A model generated the notes under the pieces. That model made no database searches. It was not told the origin of the DNA and saw only the letters and a program-made list of their open reading frames with translations. From positions 1 through 64,000 of the forward strand of contig JAILXX010000006.1 in assembly GCA_045430295.1 (NCBI GenBank): DNA of 64,000 nt. Direction: 5' to 3'. Both the position numbers and the translations under genes were made by a program. Of this stretch, positions 8,041-20,089 are shown in pieces; position 1 is the stretch's first letter, and the number at the start of each line of letters is the position of its first letter. The DNA is from Cellvibrionaceae bacterium. GTDB lineage: Bacteria; Pseudomonadota; Gammaproteobacteria; Pseudomonadales; JAILXX01.

Positions 8041-8078
8041 ACAACGCCAGACGCGTTGAACAAGGCGTCTGGCGTTGT
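8041..8078 (-). terminator. Strong rho-independent terminator ending the minus-strand operon 19784-8088
   Basis: Perfect 12-14 bp stem AACGCCAGACGC / GCGTCTGGCGTT with a 10-nt loop. The minus-strand RNA follows with GUAAUGUUUGUUUAAC. Confidence 0.6.
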
Positions 8079-8087
8079 AATGATACG

Positions 8088-8345
8088 TTAATGTTTCTCT
8101 AACACTTCTGAGAGCGCCTCAATTCTTTCTTGCATAGCTGAAGTTATTTCATCTGCTCGCAAGCGATTTACAATATTATTCAGTACCCGCTTTTCATTAT
8201 CATCAATGACTCCATCACGGGTTGCGATATCAATAATTTCATCTAGCTCCTTCTCATCTAACTTACCATCATTGGCAAAGCAATTGATGGAGTGAAAGGT
8301 CATTTCTAGATAGTCTCTACTTTCTGTCATTGTTATATCCCTCAT
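8088..8345 (-). CDS. Small acidic helical protein, tentatively TerB-like (85 aa)
   Basis: DGKLDEKELDEIIDIATRDGVIDDNEKRVLNNI pattern of paired acidic helices typical of TerB-type domains. Last gene of the operon, 3 bp after the preceding gene. Confidence 0.4.
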   Translation of the reverse strand: MRDITMTESRDYLEMTFHSINCFANDGKLDEKELDEIIDIATRDGVIDDNEKRVLNNIVNRLRADEITSAMQERIEALSEVLEKH

Positions 8346-8348
8346 TCA

Positions 8349-8915
8349 TTATTTAAGAGTTGTATTTAAGTATTGCCGAATATCGCGTTTTTCAACATGC
8401 TGATCCAGCCACTGCTTAAATTCGTCGACTTTTGTAAAATCATCCCCTAACTTTTTACGATAACGGGCTTTCAGTGTTTCTTCTTGTCGTTCTAAGCGAA
8501 TGTTTCGCTGCCAAGCATCGGTAAATATTTTTGGAAGTTTATTATGTATATCTAACTGCTGAAGCAACTTCCACTCACCTTTATCTAGCCAGGCTTCATC
8601 ACAACTTGTGCAAAGCTCTAGACGATGATTAATATCTCTTCCTATTTGAAAGCGACTCATAAATTTAGAACACTTCGGGCACAACTTTGCTTCACTGCTA
8701 TCTTCAGTAATCACATCTTCAGCTATTTCAGCAACACTGTTTTCAGCATGCTGATCAATCCAGTACCGATAATTCATTAGCGATAACAAAGAACCATCAC
8801 ATTTTGGACATACGGCTGCCAGTAGTCCTGGAGATATCTCTTTGGGCTCTAGTTGATAACCTTTGCATTGTGGGCAATCCACATTTACTCCGTTTATTAT
8901 TACTCTGGTAAACAA
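8349..8915 (-). CDS. Double zinc-ribbon protein (YfgJ/TFIIB-ribbon-like), 188 aa
   Basis: Two CxxC...CxxC ribbons (CPQC...CPKC and CPKC...CTSC). Overlaps the upstream gene by 16 bp (translational coupling). Confidence 0.55.
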   Translation of the reverse strand: MFTRVIINGVNVDCPQCKGYQLEPKEISPGLLAAVCPKCDGSLLSLMNYRYWIDQHAENSVAEIAEDVITEDSSEAKLCPKCSKFMSRFQIGRDINHRLELCTSCDEAWLDKGEWKLLQQLDIHNKLPKIFTDAWQRNIRLERQEETLKARYRKKLGDDFTKVDEFKQWLDQHVEKRDIRQYLNTTLK

Positions 8916-9733
8916 CAGCGCTTGTAACGCTTACCACTACCACATGGACAGGGGCCTTTTTTTCTCTGTCGAATGTCATCCTCTATACTGAGAACGTCTT
9001 GCTTGTAAAAATCTGATAGCCGCTGAAATAGTTTTGGATGTTTTTTCTTTAACATTTTTGGGCGCTCAAAAAAGTATTCTGAAGCTACAGCAAAGAATTC
9101 AACTTTACTCGTTCCACCATACGCTCGAATATTGCTTTTTCCCTTATCAATATCTTGTATTTTTCCCTCAATAAATGAAAACCAAGGAATCGCAAAAGCA
9201 TACTCTTTCAATCTTTCAGGAAATCCATCTGTATCACCATCAGCCATATCCACTAAATGGGCAAACTCGTGAATACCCACATTCCGCTTATCGCGAATAT
9301 TTTCAAAACCTGCGTAAAGGTCAGGCTTACTCAAGGCCATTTTTCCAGCCATAGGTCCTGAGCCCACCATACCAGTTATCATAGAATCCGGTTGTTGGCA
9401 TTCAAAATTTTCATTAAAAGCCGCTGGTAATAGATAAACGCCCTTTAAATTCAAGTAGTGCCACTTTGGAAAGCCCCATACCGGAATAATGGCACTGGCA
9501 GCAACTAGTAACCTATCTTCATCAGTAACAGAGAATTGACCAGATTCAATATCTGTCGTTTGTAAAAATAGCAAAGCTCGTTTTTGAAAAATAAGCTTGT
9601 CTTTAAAGGAAAGCTTCCGATAAAACTGTACCTTATCTTCTAAAAATTGACTCCATTCAGATTTCCATAATCCTGACTCTTGCAATTCTGGTTTATAAAA
9701 TATTTCCCAAACGCCCTTTATCCAGCTAAGCAT
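8900..9733 (-). CDS. MtfA/M90-like zinc metallopeptidase with C-terminal SEC-C metal-binding motif
   Basis: HEFAH (HExxH) motif followed by DMADGDTDG. C-terminus GPCPCGSGKRYKRCC is a SEC-C motif. Overlaps the rhomboid gene by 8 bp. Confidence 0.65.
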   Translation of the reverse strand: MLSWIKGVWEIFYKPELQESGLWKSEWSQFLEDKVQFYRKLSFKDKLIFQKRALLFLQTTDIESGQFSVTDEDRLLVAASAIIPVWGFPKWHYLNLKGVYLLPAAFNENFECQQPDSMITGMVGSGPMAGKMALSKPDLYAGFENIRDKRNVGIHEFAHLVDMADGDTDGFPERLKEYAFAIPWFSFIEGKIQDIDKGKSNIRAYGGTSKVEFFAVASEYFFERPKMLKKKHPKLFQRLSDFYKQDVLSIEDDIRQRKKGPCPCGSGKRYKRCCLPE

Positions 9734-10298
9734 GCTTTATTTCCCGAAGCCGTTTTATTTTTGTATGAAGCACAGCATATAAAATACCACTGAGTACGCC
9801 AAAAATATGGTATTCAAAAGAAACACCATTCTTTAGAGGTAACAAGCCGAGTGCCATTCCCCCATAAAATACCAGCACGACAGTTGCCATAAAGAAATGC
9901 TTTAAACTCTTATCAACCCATGCCAAAGCTATCAATAATCCCCAAAGTCCAAATATCCAACCACTAGCTCCGATGTGAATAGCAGGCCTACCAAATAACA
10001 ACACCAAAATACCACTGCTCACAATAATAAAAAGACTGGCATAACAATAGAAACGTATGGGTTTTAATAAACACAATGCACTTAATAAACTTAGTCCCGC
10101 AAGATTATTTATTAGATGAGAATGACTATTGTGTATAAAAGGTGCCGTAAATATGTGATACCAACGCTCGAATGATCTGGGAATAACGCCGAGGTATTCT
10201 ATAGGCCAAATCGCTAAAGTCTTAATGATATGCACTACCACTATGACAGTGATTAAAACCGAGAGTAGTTTTATTCTTCCGGCAAGAAATTTTGTCAT
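9726..10298 (-). CDS. Rhomboid-family intramembrane serine protease
   Basis: TM2 F-x-H-x3-H-L-x2-N motif (FIHNSHSHLINN), TM4 GASGWIFG (GxSG catalytic Ser), TM6 catalytic His (YHIFGVLSG). About 6 TM segments. Confidence 0.75.
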   Translation of the reverse strand: MTKFLAGRIKLLSVLITVIVVVHIIKTLAIWPIEYLGVIPRSFERWYHIFTAPFIHNSHSHLINNLAGLSLLSALCLLKPIRFYCYASLFIIVSSGILVLLFGRPAIHIGASGWIFGLWGLLIALAWVDKSLKHFFMATVVLVFYGGMALGLLPLKNGVSFEYHIFGVLSGILYAVLHTKIKRLREIKHA

Positions 10299-13200
10299 TC
10301 TTTACGACTTGTGATTGGTTTTGTCTCTTCTTTTTTAATATCAGCTTCCAAAATTCTTAACTGCTGAGATATGTCACCCATACGGTCATGAGTACGAAGA
10401 TCAATCTCCAGCTTTTTATCCATGGTTCGTACTAGGGGTGAAATGGTATGTTCAATGGTATCGGCCAATACTCTGAGTATTTTATCGATACCTGGAACAG
10501 GCTCATTCACTACTTGTACATTTGCCTTACTCGCCTCTACTGCTGACGTGAGTTTATCCACGACATAGAGCAAGGCATCATTGCTATCTTCATCTTTACT
10601 GTCTTGGGGTTTATCAGCGCTAGTTTTTACCATCGCGGATAGTTCATCAACACCATTTACTAGATCCATCAATTGCGCAACGATTTTTCCACCGGTGTCT
10701 GCACTGTCACCACCCATAGCTTTATTACGTAAAAAGTCCTTCTTTATTTGCTCCCAGCGCTGGTTTTCTTCCTCTGTGATATTGCCTCTTAATTCCGCTA
10801 ATTTCAGTAAGTTATCCTCGGCCCCGGTTGTCAGTAACTGTGCCTCACCCAAGTAATGATCTTGGATCATTTGCATTAATTCTTTCTCATTCATAACCGC
10901 AGAGATTTTTTCAGTCATCTTGTTCATGTTGCGATAACTACCCTGCAGCTTAAAGGCCGGTTCAGTACGGTATTGATCGTTCTGTGCGGCAGATGCGATA
11001 TATTGCTGATTGATTTTCAATACCACATCTTGGACTACAAACATTTTCTTTAAAATTTCAGTGATTTCATTAATCTCAGCACCACTGTATTGGTGACTAA
11101 GATCTGTGGTTACTGCGTCCCCGCCTTTAGCCATATCAATCAGTTTATAAACATCGGCCATTTCTCTCACCGCCAACGGTGCAAGAACTGGGTTAGAAGT
11201 GAGGGCGTTTTCCACATAACTCAATGCAAACTGCTCATCCATGCCACCCAAGATATCACCCAAATTGTAGATGTCGGCACGGTTTGCCAGCATGTCTGGT
11301 ATTTTGAATGCCTCCCCGGATTCGGTATAAGGGTTACCGGCCATAATCACACAGAACTTCCGACCACGCATATCATAGGTTTTTGTTTTCCCCTTCCACA
11401 CACCTTCAATACGACGCGTTCCATCACACAGAGAAATAAATTTCTGTAAAAACTCCGGATGCGTATGCTGAATATCATCCAGATAGAGCATCACGTTATT
11501 GCCCATTTCTAGAGCGAGGTTCAGCTTTTTCAGCTCCTGGCGTGCAGTCGCGTTCGGTGCTTGTTGTGGATCAAGGGATAGCACATCGTGTCCAAGTGAT
11601 GGACAGTTGATCTTCATAAAGATCAATCCTAATCGATTCGCCACATATTCCATCAAGGTCGTTTTACCATAACCAGGGGGCGAGATCATCATTAACAAGC
11701 CCATCAAATCCGTACGCTTGTTTTCTCCCACCGTCCCCATTTGTTTAGCCAAGTTATCCCCTATCAACGCTAAATAAGATTCATTAATCAATCGGTTCCG
11801 AACAAAAGAACTGAGGGGCCTTGGTTTAAACTCTTCTAGGCGTAAAGCTTCTCTTCGTTCACTGATAACATCCTGACGTAGCTGGTGATAACGATGAAAA
11901 CTCGGTACTACTTCATTGTGGTGCTTCTGTAATCGCAGTAAAAAATCATCCAGCGCAAAGCTCAGTTGGCGATTTTGAATAGTGGGGTGATCTCCCAACA
12001 AACCCTCAACGCTAATTTGCAAATCCACTTCAGTACTGCGACGATCAATACGCTCATCCGCATTGATCAATGCTGCGGCTTCTGGAATATACCGAGCGTA
12101 AATTTCCATGCCTTTCTCTTCTACCATAGCCTGTAACCAAGCAATGGAAAGCTTCCAACGCTCCGCAGGCCAACCCAACAATTTCTCCAAGCTTTGTTGA
12201 TAGCGACGCCAAGTAGCATCATCCATGGAGCGTTTCAACTCTTCCACAAGTTCTTGTGCATATTTACTTCCAATAAATTCAAGGCGCTCTTGGGATAGCT
12301 CGGCTACTAGATACTGAGTGGCTCGCTGGATATCTAAGCTTGAAACCTTTATTGGATGAATATCAATAAAGCGCTGCATCTCTGCTGAAACTTCTTCTTT
12401 TAATAAATTCAGTGCTGTACTGCTAGAAAACACCGCCTGCAATTGCGCTGCGGATTGCGCTCGCTCTTGCCAAGATTCGTAAGAAATATTTCCTTTATCA
12501 GTCGGAAATACACTTTTTATATTGGCCCAGAAAACTTGCGCTAGCGCTCGGCTTTTAGGATCAAAACGCAATAGATCGGCACTTTCCATTACCGGCAGAA
12601 TAGCTTGAATTAACAGGCTAGCATCGTGATCATGAATACCTTTTTCATAACCTTCTTTATAACGGGGAGCCGCAAATTGTTTTACTACATTAGCAATGCC
12701 ATCTTCTTCCAATGAGGCTGTTTTTAGAGTTTGCAACGATAGTGAATTTTGTTGTTTCTCTGCAGCTTCCAGAACTAACGAAGCTAAATATTCTGCTCGA
12801 TAGACTTCATTACTTTCAGATTCCAATGGCATTTCCCAATAGGCTTCCATAGATTGCAAGCTGTCATGGTTAATGCTCTCGTAATAGTTAGTTCCTGTTA
12901 GATGGAAATTCAACTCATGATTCCGGGGAATAATAGTCAAATCCAACTCTTGGTTATTCACAGAGAATCGATGACGCGGACCCAATTTAATAACATTGCC
13001 ACCCTCTTCAAAAATATCGCTTTTATCACGCAGTGAGCGCAATGCTTGCTCTTTAATGGCTTTGAAGCGGGATTCAATATCATCTGCTTTTACAGCACTG
13101 TCTAATTCTCGTAACTTCTCTACCTGCTCTCGGATCTTAATAACCAAAGCATCCGAGGCAAAGTAAGTATTCAAATCATCAGCGTCGGTAAACTTTAAGG

Positions 13201-15583
13201 AGCGTTTTTCAATACTGGATAATATACGCCCTGCAGCATCAGTAACCGACTGCGCCTTACGCTGCCTTTCATCCAGTAACTGCTGTTTATGGCTTTCGAA
13301 GGACTCATAGATTTCCTCACGTTTATCCATAATATCTGCGAGAAACTGATCATACTCACTGAACTGACTTTCCAGCTCTTCAAGTTGCACCAGTAAACGT
13401 GACAGCTGCTCATCACATTTTTCCGGTGTTGTCGCCAAACTCAACGCATTAGTGATGCTCTGAGAGAACAATTTGAATTGTGCTCCAAACTGCGCAATGG
13501 CTTCCTCTGAGCCAAGGTTCTTTTGCTTGTGTTTTGCTGTGGCCTTGCTTTGATTAAGCTTTGAGTAAACTTGAGAAATCGCATCAATAATGCGAGTACG
13601 CACAGTGGCATCATCCACCTTTAACGTACCCATCAGCTCAGACAATAAATCCAACCCCATAGCGGTTGATTCGATAACCTCTACAATGGGCTTCAATTGC
13701 GCAATAGTAGTAGCTTCTCCGACATCTTTATTGATACTGTCAATTTTTAATGTGTACGGTTCTAGCGCTTTATCCTCTGAGAGGAAGGAAATGGTTTCTC
13801 CACTGAGATTTTCTTCTAAGCCTCGTAAGGCTTCGCTTAGCTCTTCAATTCTTGAAACATTGATATAACGATATTCTTTAATCGTAGTTAAATGGCCACG
13901 CTGATGTCTAAGCTTAGCCAAGGCTTCCACATACTCTTCCACCGTCTGCCAACTTTCCGGGCGAATCGACTGAACTAATTGCTCCTGATCTCGCTCGGCT
14001 TCCACCATGGTTTTGGCAGACTGCTGACGAATACTTTCAACTTTCTCAAACTCATCAATAACCAGCTCAGAGGTTTCTGAAATCTCTTTCAGGGTACTGG
14101 CAATGGTTGCAGTTTCTTTATCGTCTAACCAGTAATGGTCATCGAAAATCTTTCTTGCAGCTTTACTTAACTCTTCGTATAAGCGTAACGAAACTGACTG
14201 ATTGGAGATCATACGGTAAATACCGTATAAATCTGAAACACCACGGACTAATTCCGAATTACCAATTCGGCCATAGAAACTTTTACTGGCGGGCGCCTTG
14301 CTAGCAAATTCTGTACTTTCATAAGGGGTTTGCCAGATTTGCATAGGATGAACACGTGTAGGTTCTTGTTCCGCTGAAAAAATAACTAAGCGGCCATTTT
14401 CGGCCAGTGCATAACCATGTCCATAGATAGGATTTTGTAATTCCTTTTCAATCAGGTTATAAGCAAATAAACCAACAATGCCCTCTTCTTGCTCATAAAA
14501 TACATAGAGAACATCTTCACCATTAGGGGAACGAATTACACGCTTGAATTTAAGCCCACCTGTATTTTCATCGAAGGTCTTACATTCACCCGTTTGTAAA
14601 TAATAGCCCCCAGGAAAAATTAATCCGTGGTCTTCCGGTAATTGCACACAAGACTCACCAATAGCATCTACACGGATAACACTCTCTGTGAGAGTGTTAT
14701 AAATAAGATACCGCCAATTTTCTTCTCGATAAGGACGAATCTTTAATAGAATCAGGCTTCCAACAGCAGCGTAACTGATTTGACCGTCGTCTAAAGATTG
14801 TGTTTTATCTTCTACGGGCTCTCGGTAAATGCCCAGTCCATCTTCTGTATTATTCTCAATCTTTACCGTTAAATCACCGCCAACAGTTTCTACAAACACC
14901 GTATCGAGAATATTGATATGGGGATGGCGGCCATGAATACTGTCTTCTCGACTTGTTTCGATCCATTCAAAATCATGCTTAGGTGGGAGTTGGATATCTC
15001 GCTCACCTCGATTATCAATATATTGAATAGTTTGGCCGTTTGCAGAAACCGACCAACGAAACACGCGAATATCATCTAGGCGCTCACCAATTTGAAATCC
15101 AGCAAGCAATTTTCCATTTTTAATGGTGAGCTCTATTAACTTAGTATGCTTGTAATAGCGATACAGCTCTTCAAAATCATTAACGAAACTGGCTTGCTTG
15201 AGAAAACTACCATCCAGTGACACAGGTACCATTTCATGGTGACCATTCTCTTCCTTGATATCGAAGAGGGCAAAAACATCTTCTATCTTGGTTTCTTTCT
15301 TTAACCCAATAAAGACGTTATAGCCAAATAAAAGGTGACTACCTACCTGGACAATATCACGAGCGACGCAATTATTTTCTGTACGCACCCGCACACGGGA
15401 AAGCACGTCCATATCGGAGCTACCAAACTCCTCCAAGCGTGCACGATTTAATCCGTTAATTTTTTCCTGAAGTTTATTGCCCTGCTCTTCCAAACGCTTG
15501 CGAATAATTTCATAAGCGCCGCCTTCAGCCACAGCGTTATCCACTAATTCAGCAGATTCAACACCCTTATTTTTCTCTTCCAT
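10295..15583 (-). CDS. Giant 1762-aa protein with a MoxR/AAA_5-type ATPase module (about residues 1280-1480). The long N-terminal region is of unknown type (possibly beta-rich then coiled-coil), and the C-terminal tail is acidic.
   Basis: Walker A PPGYGKTT (encoded at about 11657-11680), Walker B-like MLYLDDIQ, AAA_5-like NPYTESGEAFKIPDMLANRADIY. Overlaps the rhomboid gene by 4 bp. Confidence 0.8.
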   Translation of the reverse strand: MEEKNKGVESAELVDNAVAEGGAYEIIRKRLEEQGNKLQEKINGLNRARLEEFGSSDMDVLSRVRVRTENNCVARDIVQVGSHLLFGYNVFIGLKKETKIEDVFALFDIKEENGHHEMVPVSLDGSFLKQASFVNDFEELYRYYKHTKLIELTIKNGKLLAGFQIGERLDDIRVFRWSVSANGQTIQYIDNRGERDIQLPPKHDFEWIETSREDSIHGRHPHINILDTVFVETVGGDLTVKIENNTEDGLGIYREPVEDKTQSLDDGQISYAAVGSLILLKIRPYREENWRYLIYNTLTESVIRVDAIGESCVQLPEDHGLIFPGGYYLQTGECKTFDENTGGLKFKRVIRSPNGEDVLYVFYEQEEGIVGLFAYNLIEKELQNPIYGHGYALAENGRLVIFSAEQEPTRVHPMQIWQTPYESTEFASKAPASKSFYGRIGNSELVRGVSDLYGIYRMISNQSVSLRLYEELSKAARKIFDDHYWLDDKETATIASTLKEISETSELVIDEFEKVESIRQQSAKTMVEAERDQEQLVQSIRPESWQTVEEYVEALAKLRHQRGHLTTIKEYRYINVSRIEELSEALRGLEENLSGETISFLSEDKALEPYTLKIDSINKDVGEATTIAQLKPIVEVIESTAMGLDLLSELMGTLKVDDATVRTRIIDAISQVYSKLNQSKATAKHKQKNLGSEEAIAQFGAQFKLFSQSITNALSLATTPEKCDEQLSRLLVQLEELESQFSEYDQFLADIMDKREEIYESFESHKQQLLDERQRKAQSVTDAAGRILSSIEKRSLKFTDADDLNTYFASDALVIKIREQVEKLRELDSAVKADDIESRFKAIKEQALRSLRDKSDIFEEGGNVIKLGPRHRFSVNNQELDLTIIPRNHELNFHLTGTNYYESINHDSLQSMEAYWEMPLESESNEVYRAEYLASLVLEAAEKQQNSLSLQTLKTASLEEDGIANVVKQFAAPRYKEGYEKGIHDHDASLLIQAILPVMESADLLRFDPKSRALAQVFWANIKSVFPTDKGNISYESWQERAQSAAQLQAVFSSSTALNLLKEEVSAEMQRFIDIHPIKVSSLDIQRATQYLVAELSQERLEFIGSKYAQELVEELKRSMDDATWRRYQQSLEKLLGWPAERWKLSIAWLQAMVEEKGMEIYARYIPEAAALINADERIDRRSTEVDLQISVEGLLGDHPTIQNRQLSFALDDFLLRLQKHHNEVVPSFHRYHQLRQDVISERREALRLEEFKPRPLSSFVRNRLINESYLALIGDNLAKQMGTVGENKRTDLMGLLMMISPPGYGKTTLMEYVANRLGLIFMKINCPSLGHDVLSLDPQQAPNATARQELKKLNLALEMGNNVMLYLDDIQHTHPEFLQKFISLCDGTRRIEGVWKGKTKTYDMRGRKFCVIMAGNPYTESGEAFKIPDMLANRADIYNLGDILGGMDEQFALSYVENALTSNPVLAPLAVREMADVYKLIDMAKGGDAVTTDLSHQYSGAEINEITEILKKMFVVQDVVLKINQQYIASAAQNDQYRTEPAFKLQGSYRNMNKMTEKISAVMNEKELMQMIQDHYLGEAQLLTTGAEDNLLKLAELRGNITEEENQRWEQIKKDFLRNKAMGGDSADTGGKIVAQLMDLVNGVDELSAMVKTSADKPQDSKDEDSNDALLYVVDKLTSAVEASKANVQVVNEPVPGIDKILRVLADTIEHTISPLVRTMDKKLEIDLRTHDRMGDISQQLRILEADIKKEETKPITSRKE

Positions 15584-15644: not shown

Positions 15645-17597
15645 TTAGCTGTTGGTTTCTTCACTAACAGAGGTGGTTGTGGCTTTAGGGCCAACAAACT
15701 TCTCGATCAAGGTTGAAATGGTATCGCTTTTATCTGCTAAACCATCCACGGCTTTACCGATGGAGAGAGATTTCGCAAAGTTGTTAAAGAAGTGATCTTC
15801 ACCACCCACAATATCGATATTGGCTTTCTGCAGAGCCACCGCCAATACTTCTGCATTTTCTTTGGCAATGTCTTTACCCGCTTCGATAGAGGCCATGGCT
15901 TCTTTCAATGCAGTTTCCAAGCTCATGCGGAATTCTTCGTGGGCACGGGCATCAGTGCTCATGCTATTCATAGCATCAAACTTCTCTACCAAACCATCTG
16001 CTTCAGCCTTAAATTGTTCGCGAGTCACGTCAGCACCCGCCATACCAATTTCTTTCTCAGACTGAGCTTGCGCAAGACCCTTCGCCGCAATTACATCGGC
16101 TTCTGCTTTACCTGTACCCAAGTGTGCATCAGCTTCTGCATCGCCTTTTGCTTTAATAACATTGGCTTCAGCAACACCTTCTTTTTCCAAGGAGTAAGCT
16201 TTGGCTTCCTGTACTTTCGCATCGGCCAAACCTGGAGCAGCTCTTTCTGCTTGAACACCTTCTGCCAATTTCTTCTTAGAGTCAGCTTCTTTTGCAGCAG
16301 CTTCCAGTTGCGCTTGGGCAAGCGTGGTGATTTCAATAGCTTTATGTTTTGCAGAAAGCTCTTCTGCTTCCGCAGCTTTTACTTGCTTAACCTTTTCTTC
16401 ATCTGCTTGTGCTTCCGCAGCCAATACTTGAGTCTGCTTAGCCCGATCCGCTTCAGAAACTTCACGTACTTCTTTAATACGTTCTTCTTCAATGGCTACC
16501 GTTTTATCAACCGCAACACGCTCGCGAATTACATTTGCAATTTCTTTCTTCTCTACTTCAACGGCTTTTTCAGCTTCAATACGTTGTAATTCAACTTCTC
16601 GCTCACGAGAAACAATTTCTAAATCGCGTGCCCTTGTCACTTTTTCCACTTCAATAGCAACAGCACGTTGGCGATTCTGTTCCGCTACTTCAATTTCTCG
16701 CTTCTGATTTTCAGTTTGTACAGACAAATCCTGCTCAACTTGAATAGTCGTCGCTTCGGCTTTACGGCGCTCTTCTTCCTGAACCTTTTTGGTTTCCGCT
16801 TCTTCTCGTGCTCGAATAGTGGCAATTTCTCGCTCTTGCTTAGCTTCTGCATCAGCTTGTTGGCGTTCAAGCTCTAACATAGCCTCTACGGTTTCAACAT
16901 TTTTCTTCTTAATGGCTAATTCTTCATCACGTTCGAAAATATTGGTTTTAACATTTTGATTAGCCGTTAGTTCAGTAATTTTTCGAATACCTTCTGCATC
17001 GAGAATATTTGAAGGATCCAATGAAGCTTTAGGCGTCTGCTCCAAATAATCAATAGCAACGTCTTCCAACACATAGCCGTTTAAATCATCGCCAATAACC
17101 TGAACAATCTTGTCTCTAAATTCCTGACGGTTTTCAAACAATTTCACAAATTCGATTTGTTTACCGACAGTCTTCAGAGCTTCTGAAAATTTTGCATTAA
17201 ATAGCTGATTTACTGCATCTTTATCCGAGGCCCGCCCTGCACCAATGGATTTTGCTACTTTTAATACATCATCAGCAGTCTCATTAACTCGTAAATAGAA
17301 AGCAACTGTGATATCTGCCCGCATGTTATCTGCACAAATCAAACCATCTTTACCACGGCGATCTACCTCCAAAGTAATCAATGAAATTTTCATTAATTCC
17401 CTTTTATAGATAATCGGATACACCAAAGCACCGGTGAAATGTACTTTCGGACGAGCTGTCATATCATTGACAATCAAAGCTGTGCCTTGCTCTACTTTCA
17501 CATAGAAAGCTTTAAACAAAGCCGCAAAGCCCATCAATATAATAAAGGTAATGCCAATTCCAGTTGCGATAGGCATTAATACAGATAAATCAGCCAT
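15645..17597 (-). CDS. Flotillin-like SPFH/band-7 protein (YqiK-like), 650 aa
   Basis: N-terminal TM helix, SPFH core, and a long E/A/K/Q-rich coiled-coil region typical of bacterial flotillins. Confidence 0.8.
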   Translation of the reverse strand: MADLSVLMPIATGIGITFIILMGFAALFKAFYVKVEQGTALIVNDMTARPKVHFTGALVYPIIYKRELMKISLITLEVDRRGKDGLICADNMRADITVAFYLRVNETADDVLKVAKSIGAGRASDKDAVNQLFNAKFSEALKTVGKQIEFVKLFENRQEFRDKIVQVIGDDLNGYVLEDVAIDYLEQTPKASLDPSNILDAEGIRKITELTANQNVKTNIFERDEELAIKKKNVETVEAMLELERQQADAEAKQEREIATIRAREEAETKKVQEEERRKAEATTIQVEQDLSVQTENQKREIEVAEQNRQRAVAIEVEKVTRARDLEIVSREREVELQRIEAEKAVEVEKKEIANVIRERVAVDKTVAIEEERIKEVREVSEADRAKQTQVLAAEAQADEEKVKQVKAAEAEELSAKHKAIEITTLAQAQLEAAAKEADSKKKLAEGVQAERAAPGLADAKVQEAKAYSLEKEGVAEANVIKAKGDAEADAHLGTGKAEADVIAAKGLAQAQSEKEIGMAGADVTREQFKAEADGLVEKFDAMNSMSTDARAHEEFRMSLETALKEAMASIEAGKDIAKENAEVLAVALQKANIDIVGGEDHFFNNFAKSLSIGKAVDGLADKSDTISTLIEKFVGPKATTTSVSEETNS

Positions 17598-17668: not shown

Positions 17669-18361
17669 TTATTTTCCTGCGAATTCATTTTCTGAGATAA
17701 CGCGATAGGCATTCTCCGCTTCTAGTCGCTCAAATAACACTACACGATCACCTTTGCTAAAAGTCTCTTGGTCTGTCGATCTCACTTTCAAAATAAGTCC
17801 AGCACCACCATCTTCTAATATGGCTTCGCCAAAGTTGTTATCAACCTTACTGGTTTTCACAATAGCTGTTTGACCCAGAATATGTTTTATCGTTTGCTGC
17901 TGTGCTTTTTGAAATAAAGGCCTTAGTGGCTTGATTAAAAACGCCGTAATCATCACTGCGATATACAACACACCCACTAATACGGGAATACCTGCTATAA
18001 ACTTCAATAAATTCCCGGGTATAAAGCCAAAGAAGAAGTGAACGATGTAATAGCAGATAAACCAACCAAACAAAGAAACAAACGAAATAATGACAGTAAC
18101 AGGCACACCCTGAAGACCAAAGCGCAACATTAAACCAGCTAGTACATTGGCATTGCTTAAACCGGAATCTGGATTTACATCTAAAGCGCCATCAGCATCG
18201 GGGATATCGAAATCTAATGCATCAATTTCCACAAACCCTAAAACTGCCACCAACCAGTACAAAACTGTGATTGCTAAAAAGAAGGTAAAGAAGGCTGTAG
18301 GAAATGATGAAATATTTTGGTAAAACGGGTTCATATTTTCCGATAACAATATTGCAAACAT
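17669..18361 (-). CDS. YqiJ/NfeD-like membrane protein (flotillin operon partner)
   Basis: Multi-TM N-terminal half plus a C-terminal short NfeD-type beta-barrel-like segment (GEAILEDGGAGLILKVRS...KGDRVVL). Lies immediately upstream of the flotillin gene, as yqiJ-yqiK in E. coli. Confidence 0.6.
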   Translation of the reverse strand: MFAILLSENMNPFYQNISSFPTAFFTFFLAITVLYWLVAVLGFVEIDALDFDIPDADGALDVNPDSGLSNANVLAGLMLRFGLQGVPVTVIISFVSLFGWFICYYIVHFFFGFIPGNLLKFIAGIPVLVGVLYIAVMITAFLIKPLRPLFQKAQQQTIKHILGQTAIVKTSKVDNNFGEAILEDGGAGLILKVRSTDQETFSKGDRVVLFERLEAENAYRVISENEFAGK

Positions 18362-18393: not shown

Positions 18394-19080
18394 TTATTTC
18401 TTATTCTTCAGTCTTTCGAGAATATCATCAGCGCTTTTACCCTGTGGGGCAATACCTGCTTTCTCCAGTTTTTCCTGTAAAGAATCCCCATAACTTTCTT
18501 CCGCTAACTCATTAGCCGCTGCCATTTGTGCTGACTTTAACGACTGCTTCTCTTTAATACGCTCCAAAGAATCCATAGCAGTACGCATTTTTGAATTAGA
18601 TCCACTATGCCTTTCCGCGACTGCGGCTTGTGCTCGCTGAACACTTTCAGTGGCTTTTACAGTATCAATCTGCTGCTTGATTCGCTTTAAGTTACTTTCT
18701 GTTTGCTTGATCGCTGTACGTAACTGTTCTGCACTAGCCTCGTAACCTTTACCTGCCTCTTCTTCTTGAGCTAGCTGGTTTTCCAGGTTTGCAATTTTTT
18801 GTGCTACTTCACGGGCTAAATCTTCATCGCCTTTTTCTAGTGCTTTAATTGCATAACCTTCATTTTCTGAAATATTTTTTTTCAAATTTTTAGATTTTTC
18901 TTGGGACAGCTTTTGTCGCGCAATGATTTCTGCCAATGCATCTTTCGATTGCTTTAGTTCTTCACCAGCTTCTCGCACTTCTTGATCCAAGATTCTAAGT
19001 GCTTGGCTATCCACAATAGCTTCGCCTGCTTCATTTACACCACCCTTGAGGGCGGTCATCATTTTTGCCCAAATGTTCAT
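18394..19080 (-). CDS. PspA/IM30 (Vipp1, ESCRT-III superfamily) protein
   Basis: MNIWAKMMTALKGGVNEAGEAIVDSQALRILDQEVREA is a typical PspA N-terminus. All-helical coiled-coil, 228 aa. Strong SD AAGGAG. Confidence 0.8.
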   Translation of the reverse strand: MNIWAKMMTALKGGVNEAGEAIVDSQALRILDQEVREAGEELKQSKDALAEIIARQKLSQEKSKNLKKNISENEGYAIKALEKGDEDLAREVAQKIANLENQLAQEEEAGKGYEASAEQLRTAIKQTESNLKRIKQQIDTVKATESVQRAQAAVAERHSGSNSKMRTAMDSLERIKEKQSLKSAQMAAANELAEESYGDSLQEKLEKAGIAPQGKSADDILERLKNKK

Positions 19081-19115: not shown

Positions 19116-19748
19116 CTAACTGGCTATCTCTACTGGAAATTCTAAAAATTCTGCATAAGCTTCCGTAGCTTGAATTACATTATTTGCTAGCACTTCAATT
19201 TCAAATATCACATTCGACAATTTTGATGTTGAGCTCAACGCACCAAACATATGGTAATAATCTTCATCTTTACCCGTTTTATCCAAGCTAATTGTGGAAA
19301 GCGGGAAGTACTTATGTGTACGTAACACAGTTTCATTAAACAGTGTCACATCTGTCACTTCAGTCACCGACCAAAGTACAGACTCAGCAATAATCTGCTC
19401 TCCTGACACCGTAAGAAAAATCGGTAGCTCACCATAGTTATTCATTACTATGTGTAGCGACGATTCGACACCATCAATCAACTCAATAGTCACTGATCCA
19501 CTGGTAACTAAATCTGTTTCCTGCAATGCCTTCAATAAACTCGTTGTTGTCCAATGATTTGCCGTATCAACCATAAGGCTTTCTCCTTCTAACATATTTC
19601 CTGAAATAGGTAGCCGCAGTGACTTTTCCACCTCGGCCAGACGCCTGGCATTTTCGGGCAGTATCCATACTTCTTTCTTTACAAGTCCCTGTTCCCGCAG
19701 CCGTCGCCGGTATTCCCGTTGGTAGTGTGCTGATGATTTTTTGTTCAT
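19116..19748 (-). CDS. Hypothetical protein, first gene of the operon: basic N-terminus plus possible YjfI/DUF2170-like domain
   Basis: The ORF track gives a TTG start at 19784. The ATG at 19748 is preferred because all three operator-like palindromes then lie outside the CDS. The arrangement mirrors E. coli yjfI-yjfJ (YjfJ is the PspA paralog). Confidence 0.5.
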   Translation of the reverse strand: MNKKSSAHYQREYRRRLREQGLVKKEVWILPENARRLAEVEKSLRLPISGNMLEGESLMVDTANHWTTTSLLKALQETDLVTSGSVTIELIDGVESSLHIVMNNYGELPIFLTVSGEQIIAESVLWSVTEVTDVTLFNETVLRTHKYFPLSTISLDKTGKDEDYYHMFGALSSTSKLSNVIFEIEVLANNVIQATEAYAEFLEFPVEIAS

Positions 19749-19754
19749 GGGTCC

Positions 19755-19813
19755 ACTATAGTTAATCACATGTAATGATGTCAATAAATTACATGTAATG
19801 ATTTTACATGTAA
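19755..19813 (-). promoter_or_regulatory. Candidate sigma70 promoter (TTGACA-N18-TATAGT on the minus strand) with three copies of the 10-bp palindrome TTACATGTAA
   Basis: -10 rc at 19755-19760 and -35 rc at 19779-19784. Palindromes at 19789-19798 and 19804-19813 (perfect) and 19766-19775 (TCACATGTAA, inside the spacer). If correct, the mRNA would have a very short leader or none. Confidence 0.35.
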
Positions 19814-20089
19814 CTACCCTTGCTTATTCTCTTCAGCATTTGTGCAGCTATATAAATGAACAAATCAGGGACTGTTTACTCAAGAAAAACCAGGTGTGAG
19901 AAGGTATAACTAGTGAAAATAAAGACAATCCATCACTCCTTGATATTTATTATTGTTATAGATGACCACCTGAAATCGCTACAGGCGGTCTATATTACTC
20001 TCTATTTAACTCTTTATGCCAGATGCTTAAATCAAAACCAGTAGCCTATTTCAGCATTAAGAGCACTGCATAATGTAAGTACTTACTAC

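What the first reader, a model, noticed from the sequence alone, without database searches (positions are those of the whole stretch)
10295..15583. 1762-aa giant protein: large N-terminal region of unknown type plus MoxR/AAA_5 ATPase plus acidic tail
The only recognisable module is an AAA_5/MoxR-like ATPase near residues 1280-1480 (PPGYGKTT; LYLDDIQ; NPYTESGEAFKIPDMLANR). The first roughly 1250 residues have no obvious catalytic motif. Residues about 300-500 are Gly/Tyr/aromatic-rich, possibly beta-propeller-like, and are followed by long predicted coiled-coils. The last roughly 280 residues are strongly acidic (KPQDSKDEDSNDA...). Giant MoxR-type proteins embedded with a PspA and a flotillin are not a described architecture.
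Basis: seen in the sequence. Interest (0 to 1): 0.72.

Follow-up and report, generated by a model that had tools for sequence, protein, structure and literature searches.

The report
BacE-type flotillin/PspA-operon giant AAA+ ATPase
This is an intact, widely conserved 1762-residue cytoplasmic ATPase (beta-propeller, long helical rod, AAA+ motor) that always sits behind a flotillin gene and often a PspA gene; the family and operon are already described, but what the ATPase does has never been tested.

Summary
The ORF (10295-15583, minus strand) is real and intact. An identical protein is already in NCBI ("DNA repair ATPase", Cellvibrionaceae MAG), and thousands of collinear homologues of 1600-1900 aa exist.

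The N-terminus is not of unknown type. It matches Pfam DUF3686 (E=8e-208) and DUF7902, and AlphaFold plus Foldseek show a beta-propeller followed by spectrin-like helical bundles.

The AAA+ module and all three quoted motifs are confirmed. It does not pass the MoxR-specific model, and its Walker B is an invariant DD rather than DE. The "acidic 280-residue tail" is not supported: only a short, poorly conserved linker is acidic.

In 68 of 68 related loci with enough upstream DNA, the gene follows YqiJ-like and YqiK-type flotillin genes. 43 of 68 also carry DUF2170(BacA)-PspA.

This architecture was described by Ravi et al. 2024. It is the bacABCDEF operon of P. aeruginosa (BacE = PA3728), so "not a described architecture" is wrong.

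My best reading, which is inferred, is an ATP-driven remodeller of flotillin and/or PspA assemblies on the inner membrane. Function is still experimentally unknown.

Verdict: new member of a known kind; moderate interest.

The parts
10295..15583 (-). Giant ATPase gene (1762 aa), orthologue of BacE/PA3728-type proteins
   Evidence: ORF. Pfam DUF3686 + DUF7902 + AAA/AAA_5. Full-length homologues.
15425..15568 (-). N-terminal long helix (residues 6-53)
   Evidence: AlphaFold model m0cd000808dec, helices 6-20 and 22-53.
14324..15412 (-). Beta-propeller (residues ~58-420; inside Pfam DUF3686, residues 38-484)
   Evidence: E=8e-208. One search shows about 26 strands with pLDDT mostly 77-91 (about 44-61 across residues ~211-270). 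Foldseek hits Sec12, DCAF1 WD40, the prolyl-oligopeptidase propeller, PON1 and Vps18.
13022..14323 (-). Helical rod (residues 421-854), including Pfam DUF7902 (residues 605-688 = nt 13520-13771)
12944..13021 (-). Conserved segment predicted disordered (residues 855-880); possible interaction motif
   Evidence: pLDDT below 50, but mean conservation 0.83 over 81 sequences.
11729..12943 (-). Small beta unit plus helical bundles and a pre-AAA helical region (residues 881-1285)
   Evidence: No detectable second AAA+ domain or internal repeat by hhalign.
11204..11728 (-). AAA+ ATPase core (residues 1286-1460). Walker A is nt 11657-11680, Walker B (LYLDD) nt 11468-11488, and the sensor-1 Asn to invariant Arg1435 motif nt 11279-11335.
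   Evidence: Pfam AAA and AAA_5. AlphaFold model. Foldseek hits ClpA/ClpB-D2/Skd3, NorQ, RuvB and MCM at E about 1e-5. Mean conservation 91%, and motifs present in 81/81 sequences.
10664..11203 (-). Conserved post-AAA helical region (residues 1461-1640; lid and further helices, including the invariant QGSYRNMNK)
   Evidence: conservation 0.77.
10298..10663 (-). Variable C-terminal tail (residues 1641-1762): a short acidic linker, then a long helix
   Evidence: conservation 0.28-0.32, gaps in 20% of sequences.
15645..17597 (-). YqiK-type flotillin (650 aa), obligate upstream neighbour
   Evidence: hhalign against E. coli YqiK gives probability 99.9, E=1e-33. Present in 68/68 loci with enough upstream DNA. 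No Pfam or PDB HMMER hit.
17669..18361 (-). YqiJ/NfeD-like membrane protein (230 aa)
   Evidence: Weak YqiJ_N hit. Conserved upstream of the flotillin in 68/68 loci. Homologous to the Fuerstiella neighbour.
18394..19080 (-). PspA/IM30 (ESCRT-III superfamily) protein
   Evidence: PF04012, E=4.6e-48. Present in 43/68 loci.
19116..19748 (-). BacA-type DUF2170 (CesT/Tir-like) protein. The probable start is ATG 19748, not TTG 19784.
   Evidence: NCBIfam NF050185 scores 316 bits against a cut-off of 300, with the match starting at ORF residue 13. PF09938 hit.
19755..19816 (-). Operon promoter-like site (TTGACA-18-TATAGT) overlapped by three TTACATGTAA palindromes
   Evidence: The palindrome recurs upstream of the DUF2170 gene in 23 related loci.
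9726..10298 (-). Rhomboid-family membrane protease gene; its start overlaps the ATPase stop (ATGA)
   Evidence: PF01694. Overlap shown. Immediately downstream in 20/73 loci.
8088..9733 (-). Distal operon genes: M90 peptidase with SEC-C motif (8900-9733), zinc-ribbon protein (8349-8915), 85-aa ORF (8088-8345). A terminator-like hairpin follows at 8042-8058.
   Evidence: The zinc-ribbon protein occurs in 14/80 loci, orf85 in 17/80 and M90 in 0/80.

Best explanation
The gene encodes a soluble, cytoplasmic member of the BacE/PA3728 family (DUF3686 beta-propeller, spectrin-like helical rod with DUF7902, one AAA+ ATPase domain, variable tail). It is the energy-consuming subunit of a flotillin-centred inner-membrane maintenance and stress module.

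Shown here:
- The domain anatomy.
- An intact and extremely conserved nucleotide site.
- Absence of transmembrane segments.
- Obligatory operon linkage to a YqiJ/NfeD-like membrane protein and a YqiK-type flotillin.
- Frequent linkage to BacA(DUF2170)-PspA, and variable linkage to membrane-acting accessories: rhomboid here; PLD, TelA or MscS-like proteins elsewhere.

Shown by others, in P. aeruginosa:
- The genes are co-transcribed as bacABCDEF.
- They are co-induced in a bacA mutant and on phage infection.
- bacA and bacB mutants have biofilm, rhamnolipid and virulence defects.

Inferred:
- The protein oligomerises through its AAA+ domain, with invariant Arg1435 as the trans-acting finger.
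- It docks through the propeller and rod onto the cytoplasmic flotillin (SPFH) cage and/or PspA (ESCRT-III-type) polymer.
- It uses ATP to assemble, remodel or disassemble these scaffolds so that they can turn over after membrane damage. This would make it a functional analogue of Vps4, not a homologue in the clade sense.
- Because flotillin linkage is universal and PspA linkage is not, flotillin/YqiJ is the more likely direct partner.
For: Family and anatomy:
-.
- No TM segment.

Gene context:
- YqiJ and flotillin lie upstream on the same strand in 68/68 loci; DUF2170+PspA in 43/68; rhomboid immediately downstream in 20/73.
- PLD, TelA and MscS-like genes occur downstream in other lineages.
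- The triad is kept in a planctomycete at 44% flotillin identity.
- The neighbour is a true YqiK homologue.
- Translational coupling to the rhomboid gene.

Literature:
- The same operon and an 'ATP-dependent membrane remodelling' reading appear in PMC11237479.
- bacABCDEF is co-transcribed and up 6-13 fold in a bacA mutant (PMC10948618).
- PA3728-PA3732 are induced by phage infection (PMC12041424).
- A review states that no Vps4-like ATPase is known for bacterial PspA (PMC7619361).
Against: - No direct evidence of any physical interaction or of ATPase activity.
- The AAA+ domain groups structurally with ClpB-D2, RuvB, NorQ and MCM-type modules rather than with Vps4/p97.
- It has no aromatic pore-loop motif after strand beta-2 (sequence PSLGHDV). 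Its Walker B is DD instead of DE in 81/81 sequences. It may therefore be a slow switch rather than a threading motor.
- No MIT-like or other known ESCRT-III-binding domain was recognised.
- One distant member (Aureibacter) stands alone without flotillin nearby.
- E. coli has yqiJK without this ATPase, so flotillin does not need it in general.
Confidence: 0.45

Rival explanations
1. Nucleotide-dependent scaffold or switch, not a motor. ATP binding with slow hydrolysis controls oligomerisation of a long rod-shaped tether. The tether recruits or activates the variable membrane-acting enzymes (rhomboid, PLD, M90 peptidase) at flotillin microdomains.
For: - The Walker B catalytic Glu is replaced by Asp in 81/81 sequences.
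- There is no canonical aromatic pore loop (sequence).
- The roughly 800-residue spectrin/talin-like helical region looks like a spacer or scaffold.
- The downstream effector genes vary while the ATPase stays constant.
- The ATPase is translationally coupled to the rhomboid gene.
Against: - The whole P-loop, sensor-1 and Arg-finger apparatus is 91% conserved, which suggests real catalysis.
- To my knowledge (from memory, not tested here), some active AAA+ helicases carry DD in Walker B.
Confidence: 0.2
2. Stress- or phage-triggered defence module. The operon senses envelope damage by phage or competitors, and the ATPase activates membrane-degrading effectors in an abortive-infection-like response.
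For: - PA3728-PA3732 are among 17 genes induced by two phages in P. aeruginosa (PMC12041424).
- PLD and protease genes are attached to the operon.
Against: - No PADLOC model matches the ATPase, flotillin, YqiJ or BacA proteins.
- The locus sits in core chromosome next to dnaN-recF-gyrB and glyQS, with no mobile-element signs.
- The family is strongly conserved and syntenic across orders, unlike typical patchy defence islands.
Confidence: 0.1
3. MoxR-type chaperone that matures or inserts a cofactor or subunit into a specific protein complex, as RavA-ViaA, NorQ-NorD and CbbQ-CbbO do.
For: - AAA_5 matches at 28-31 bits.
- NorQ is among the top Foldseek matches.
- The 'NP..E.G....P.....R' motif after sensor 1 resembles the MoxR pattern (from memory).
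- A pre-sensor-1 beta-hairpin is predicted.
- Some JGI records call homologues 'MoxR-like'.
Against: - The MoxR-specific Pfam AAA_3 model scores 14.5 bits against a cut-off of 27.
- None of the annotated recurrent neighbour families is a VWA/MIDAS partner; two recurrent clusters gave no Pfam hit.
- ClpB-D2 and RuvB score equally well by fold.
Confidence: 0.07
4. DNA repair ATPase, as the protein is named in NCBI, UniRef and the Pfam DUF3686 description.
For: - Only the database label supports this.
- recJ lies two or three genes downstream in two Pseudomonas loci.
- recF and gyrB lie nearby in this window.
Against: - No DNA-binding, nuclease or helicase domain was found.
- The conserved neighbours are all membrane proteins.
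- The DNA-metabolism neighbours are not conserved across loci.
- No paper in the library holds the term DUF3686.
Confidence: 0.03

Closest known systems
BacE (PA14_16190 / PA3728) of the Pseudomonas aeruginosa bacABCDEF operon, which is the 'beta-propeller + coiled-coil + AAA-ATPase' of the CesT/Tir-PspA-YqiJ-flotillin operons of Ravi et al. 2024
   Same: - About 58% identity over the full length to the P. paraeruginosa orthologue.
- The same gene order, BacA(DUF2170)-PspA-YqiJ-flotillin-ATPase.
- The same Pfam set.
   Different: - The Pseudomonas operon ends with a PLD-family gene (BacF). This window instead has rhomboid, an M90/SEC-C peptidase, a zinc-ribbon protein and an 85-aa ORF.
- A sigma-54 promoter was proposed in Pseudomonas. 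Here a strong sigma-70-like site with TTACATGTAA palindromes is seen.
Vps4/CdvC with ESCRT-III
   Same: An AAA+ ATPase encoded together with an ESCRT-III-superfamily protein (PspA). The proposed role is turnover of a membrane-bound polymer.
   Different: - No MIT domain and no Vps4_C domain.
- The top fold matches are ClpB-D2, RuvB, NorQ and MCM, not the classical clade.
- The protein is about four times larger, with a propeller and a rod.
- Linkage to PspA is facultative (43/68), whereas linkage to flotillin is universal (68/68).
FtsH with the HflK/C SPFH cage
   Same: An AAA+ enzyme functionally coupled to an SPFH-family membrane scaffold, in an operon-level partnership.
   Different: - FtsH is a membrane-anchored classical-clade AAA protease enclosed by a periplasm-facing cage.
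- This protein has no TM segment and no protease domain.
- Its YqiK-type flotillin is taken to face the cytoplasm (from established knowledge of E. coli YqiK, not tested here).
MoxR/AAA_5 ATPases (RavA, NorQ, CbbQ) and midasin/dynein-type AAA_5 modules
   Same: - A marginal AAA_5 match.
- A predicted pre-sensor-1 hairpin.
- NorQ among the fold hits.
   Different: - It fails the MoxR-specific model.
- No VWA partner among the annotated recurrent neighbours.
- A single AAA+ domain, not a concatenated ring.
- Walker B is DD.

Membership tests
DUF3686/DUF7902 AAA+ family (BacE / PA3728 type) | Pfam PF12458 (DUF3686) match above the gathering score | tested here: met
   690.8 bits against a cut-off of 25, residues 38-484, covering 447/448 profile positions.
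DUF3686/DUF7902 AAA+ family (BacE / PA3728 type) | Pfam PF25472 (DUF7902) in the helical region and a single C-terminal AAA+ domain, collinear with full-length family members | tested here: met
   95.7 bits against a cut-off of 26. 120 of 120 top homologues carry the same Pfam set and cover 90-100% of the query, nearly all 98-100%. Representatives stay collinear down to about 30% identity.
DUF3686/DUF7902 AAA+ family (BacE / PA3728 type) | Encoded directly downstream of yqiJ-like and yqiK-type flotillin genes | tested here: met
   This is the order in the window. It holds in 68/68 related loci.
AAA+ superfamily | Walker A motif GxxxxGK[ST] | tested here: met
   GYGKTT, residues 1304-1309, in 81/81 sequences.
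AAA+ superfamily | Walker B motif hhhhDE with a catalytic Glu | tested here: not met
   The motif is MLYLDD. The second acidic residue is Asp in 81/81 sequences. The hydrophobic strand and the first Asp are present.
AAA+ superfamily | Alpha-beta-alpha core fold with sensor-1 polar residue and a helical lid | tested here: met
   In the AlphaFold model, strand order and Asn1417 at the end of beta-4 fit. 305 PDB AAA+ chains match at E<=0.001.
AAA+ superfamily | Trans-acting arginine finger and ring (hexamer) assembly | not testable with these tools
   Invariant Arg1435 is a candidate. Its segment has pLDDT below 50 in the monomer model. No multimer prediction was available.
MoxR family (Pfam AAA_3 / COG0714) | Match to the MoxR-specific model above its cut-off | tested here: not met
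   PF07726 scores 14.3-14.5 bits against a cut-off of 27 in two of four family members, with no hit in the other two.
MoxR family (Pfam AAA_3 / COG0714) | Conserved VWA/MIDAS partner gene | tested here: not met
   The annotated recurrent neighbours are YqiJ, flotillin, DUF2170, PspA, rhomboid, PLD, Zn-ribbon, TelA and MscS-like. Two further recurrent downstream clusters gave no Pfam hit. None is VWA.
Vps4 / classical AAA clade | N-terminal MIT domain and Vps4_C; closest structural similarity to classical-clade modules | tested here: not met
   No MIT or Vps4_C Pfam hit. The Foldseek top 50 are Clp/Hsp100 AAA+ modules (ClpA, ClpB-NBD2, ClpC, Skd3), RuvB, NorQ and MCM. By sequence, only the P-loop resembles p97 or Vps4, at E>=0.15.
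bac / CesT-PspA-flotillin-AAA+ operon (Ravi 2024; Wallart 2024) | DUF2170 (BacA) and PspA_IM30 genes at the head of the operon | tested here: met
   NF050185 scores 316 bits (cut-off 300) and PF09938 matches. PF04012 has E=4.6e-48.
bac / CesT-PspA-flotillin-AAA+ operon (Ravi 2024; Wallart 2024) | TM + Band-7/flotillin protein homologous to YqiK | tested here: met
   hhalign against E. coli YqiK gives probability 99.9, E=1e-33, over 421 columns. Pfam itself finds nothing.
bac / CesT-PspA-flotillin-AAA+ operon (Ravi 2024; Wallart 2024) | PLD (HKD) gene after the ATPase (BacF); optional, 'in some Proteobacteria' | tested here: not met
   The window has rhomboid, M90 and a Zn-ribbon protein instead. 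PLDc_2 is found in 20/80 other loci.
DNA repair ATPases (database label) | DNA-binding, nuclease or helicase domain, or conserved linkage to DNA-repair genes | tested here: not met
   None found by Pfam, PDB sequence search or fold search. The conserved neighbours are membrane proteins.

The most novel reading that the evidence does not exclude
BacE-type ATPases are the missing energy source of bacterial ESCRT-III/SPFH membrane repair. A megadalton-scale ring of propeller-rod-AAA+ subunits would dock on the cytoplasmic flotillin dome, use ATP to strip or reset flotillin and PspA polymers, and gate the attached rhomboid or PLD enzymes. It would be a non-homologous analogue of Vps4. Its beta-propeller plus helical-rod layout would loosely recall eukaryotic membrane-coat proteins.
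Probability: 0.25. Interest if true: 0.8.

Novelty: new member of a known kind. Interest (0 to 1): 0.4.

Why it matters
A 2025 review states that no Vps4-like ATPase is known for bacterial PspA/ESCRT-III (PMC7619361). How bacterial flotillin cages are assembled and recycled is also not established.

This family is the only ATPase universally wired to a flotillin operon in hundreds of species, including P. aeruginosa. There the operon affects biofilm, rhamnolipids and virulence, and PA3728 is recurrently mutated in cystic-fibrosis isolates.

The family is mislabelled 'DNA repair ATPase' in public databases. A 2026 paper still calls PA3728-PA3732 ORFs of unknown function. Correcting the label and testing the remodeller hypothesis in a tractable host is therefore worthwhile, even though the architecture itself is not a new discovery.

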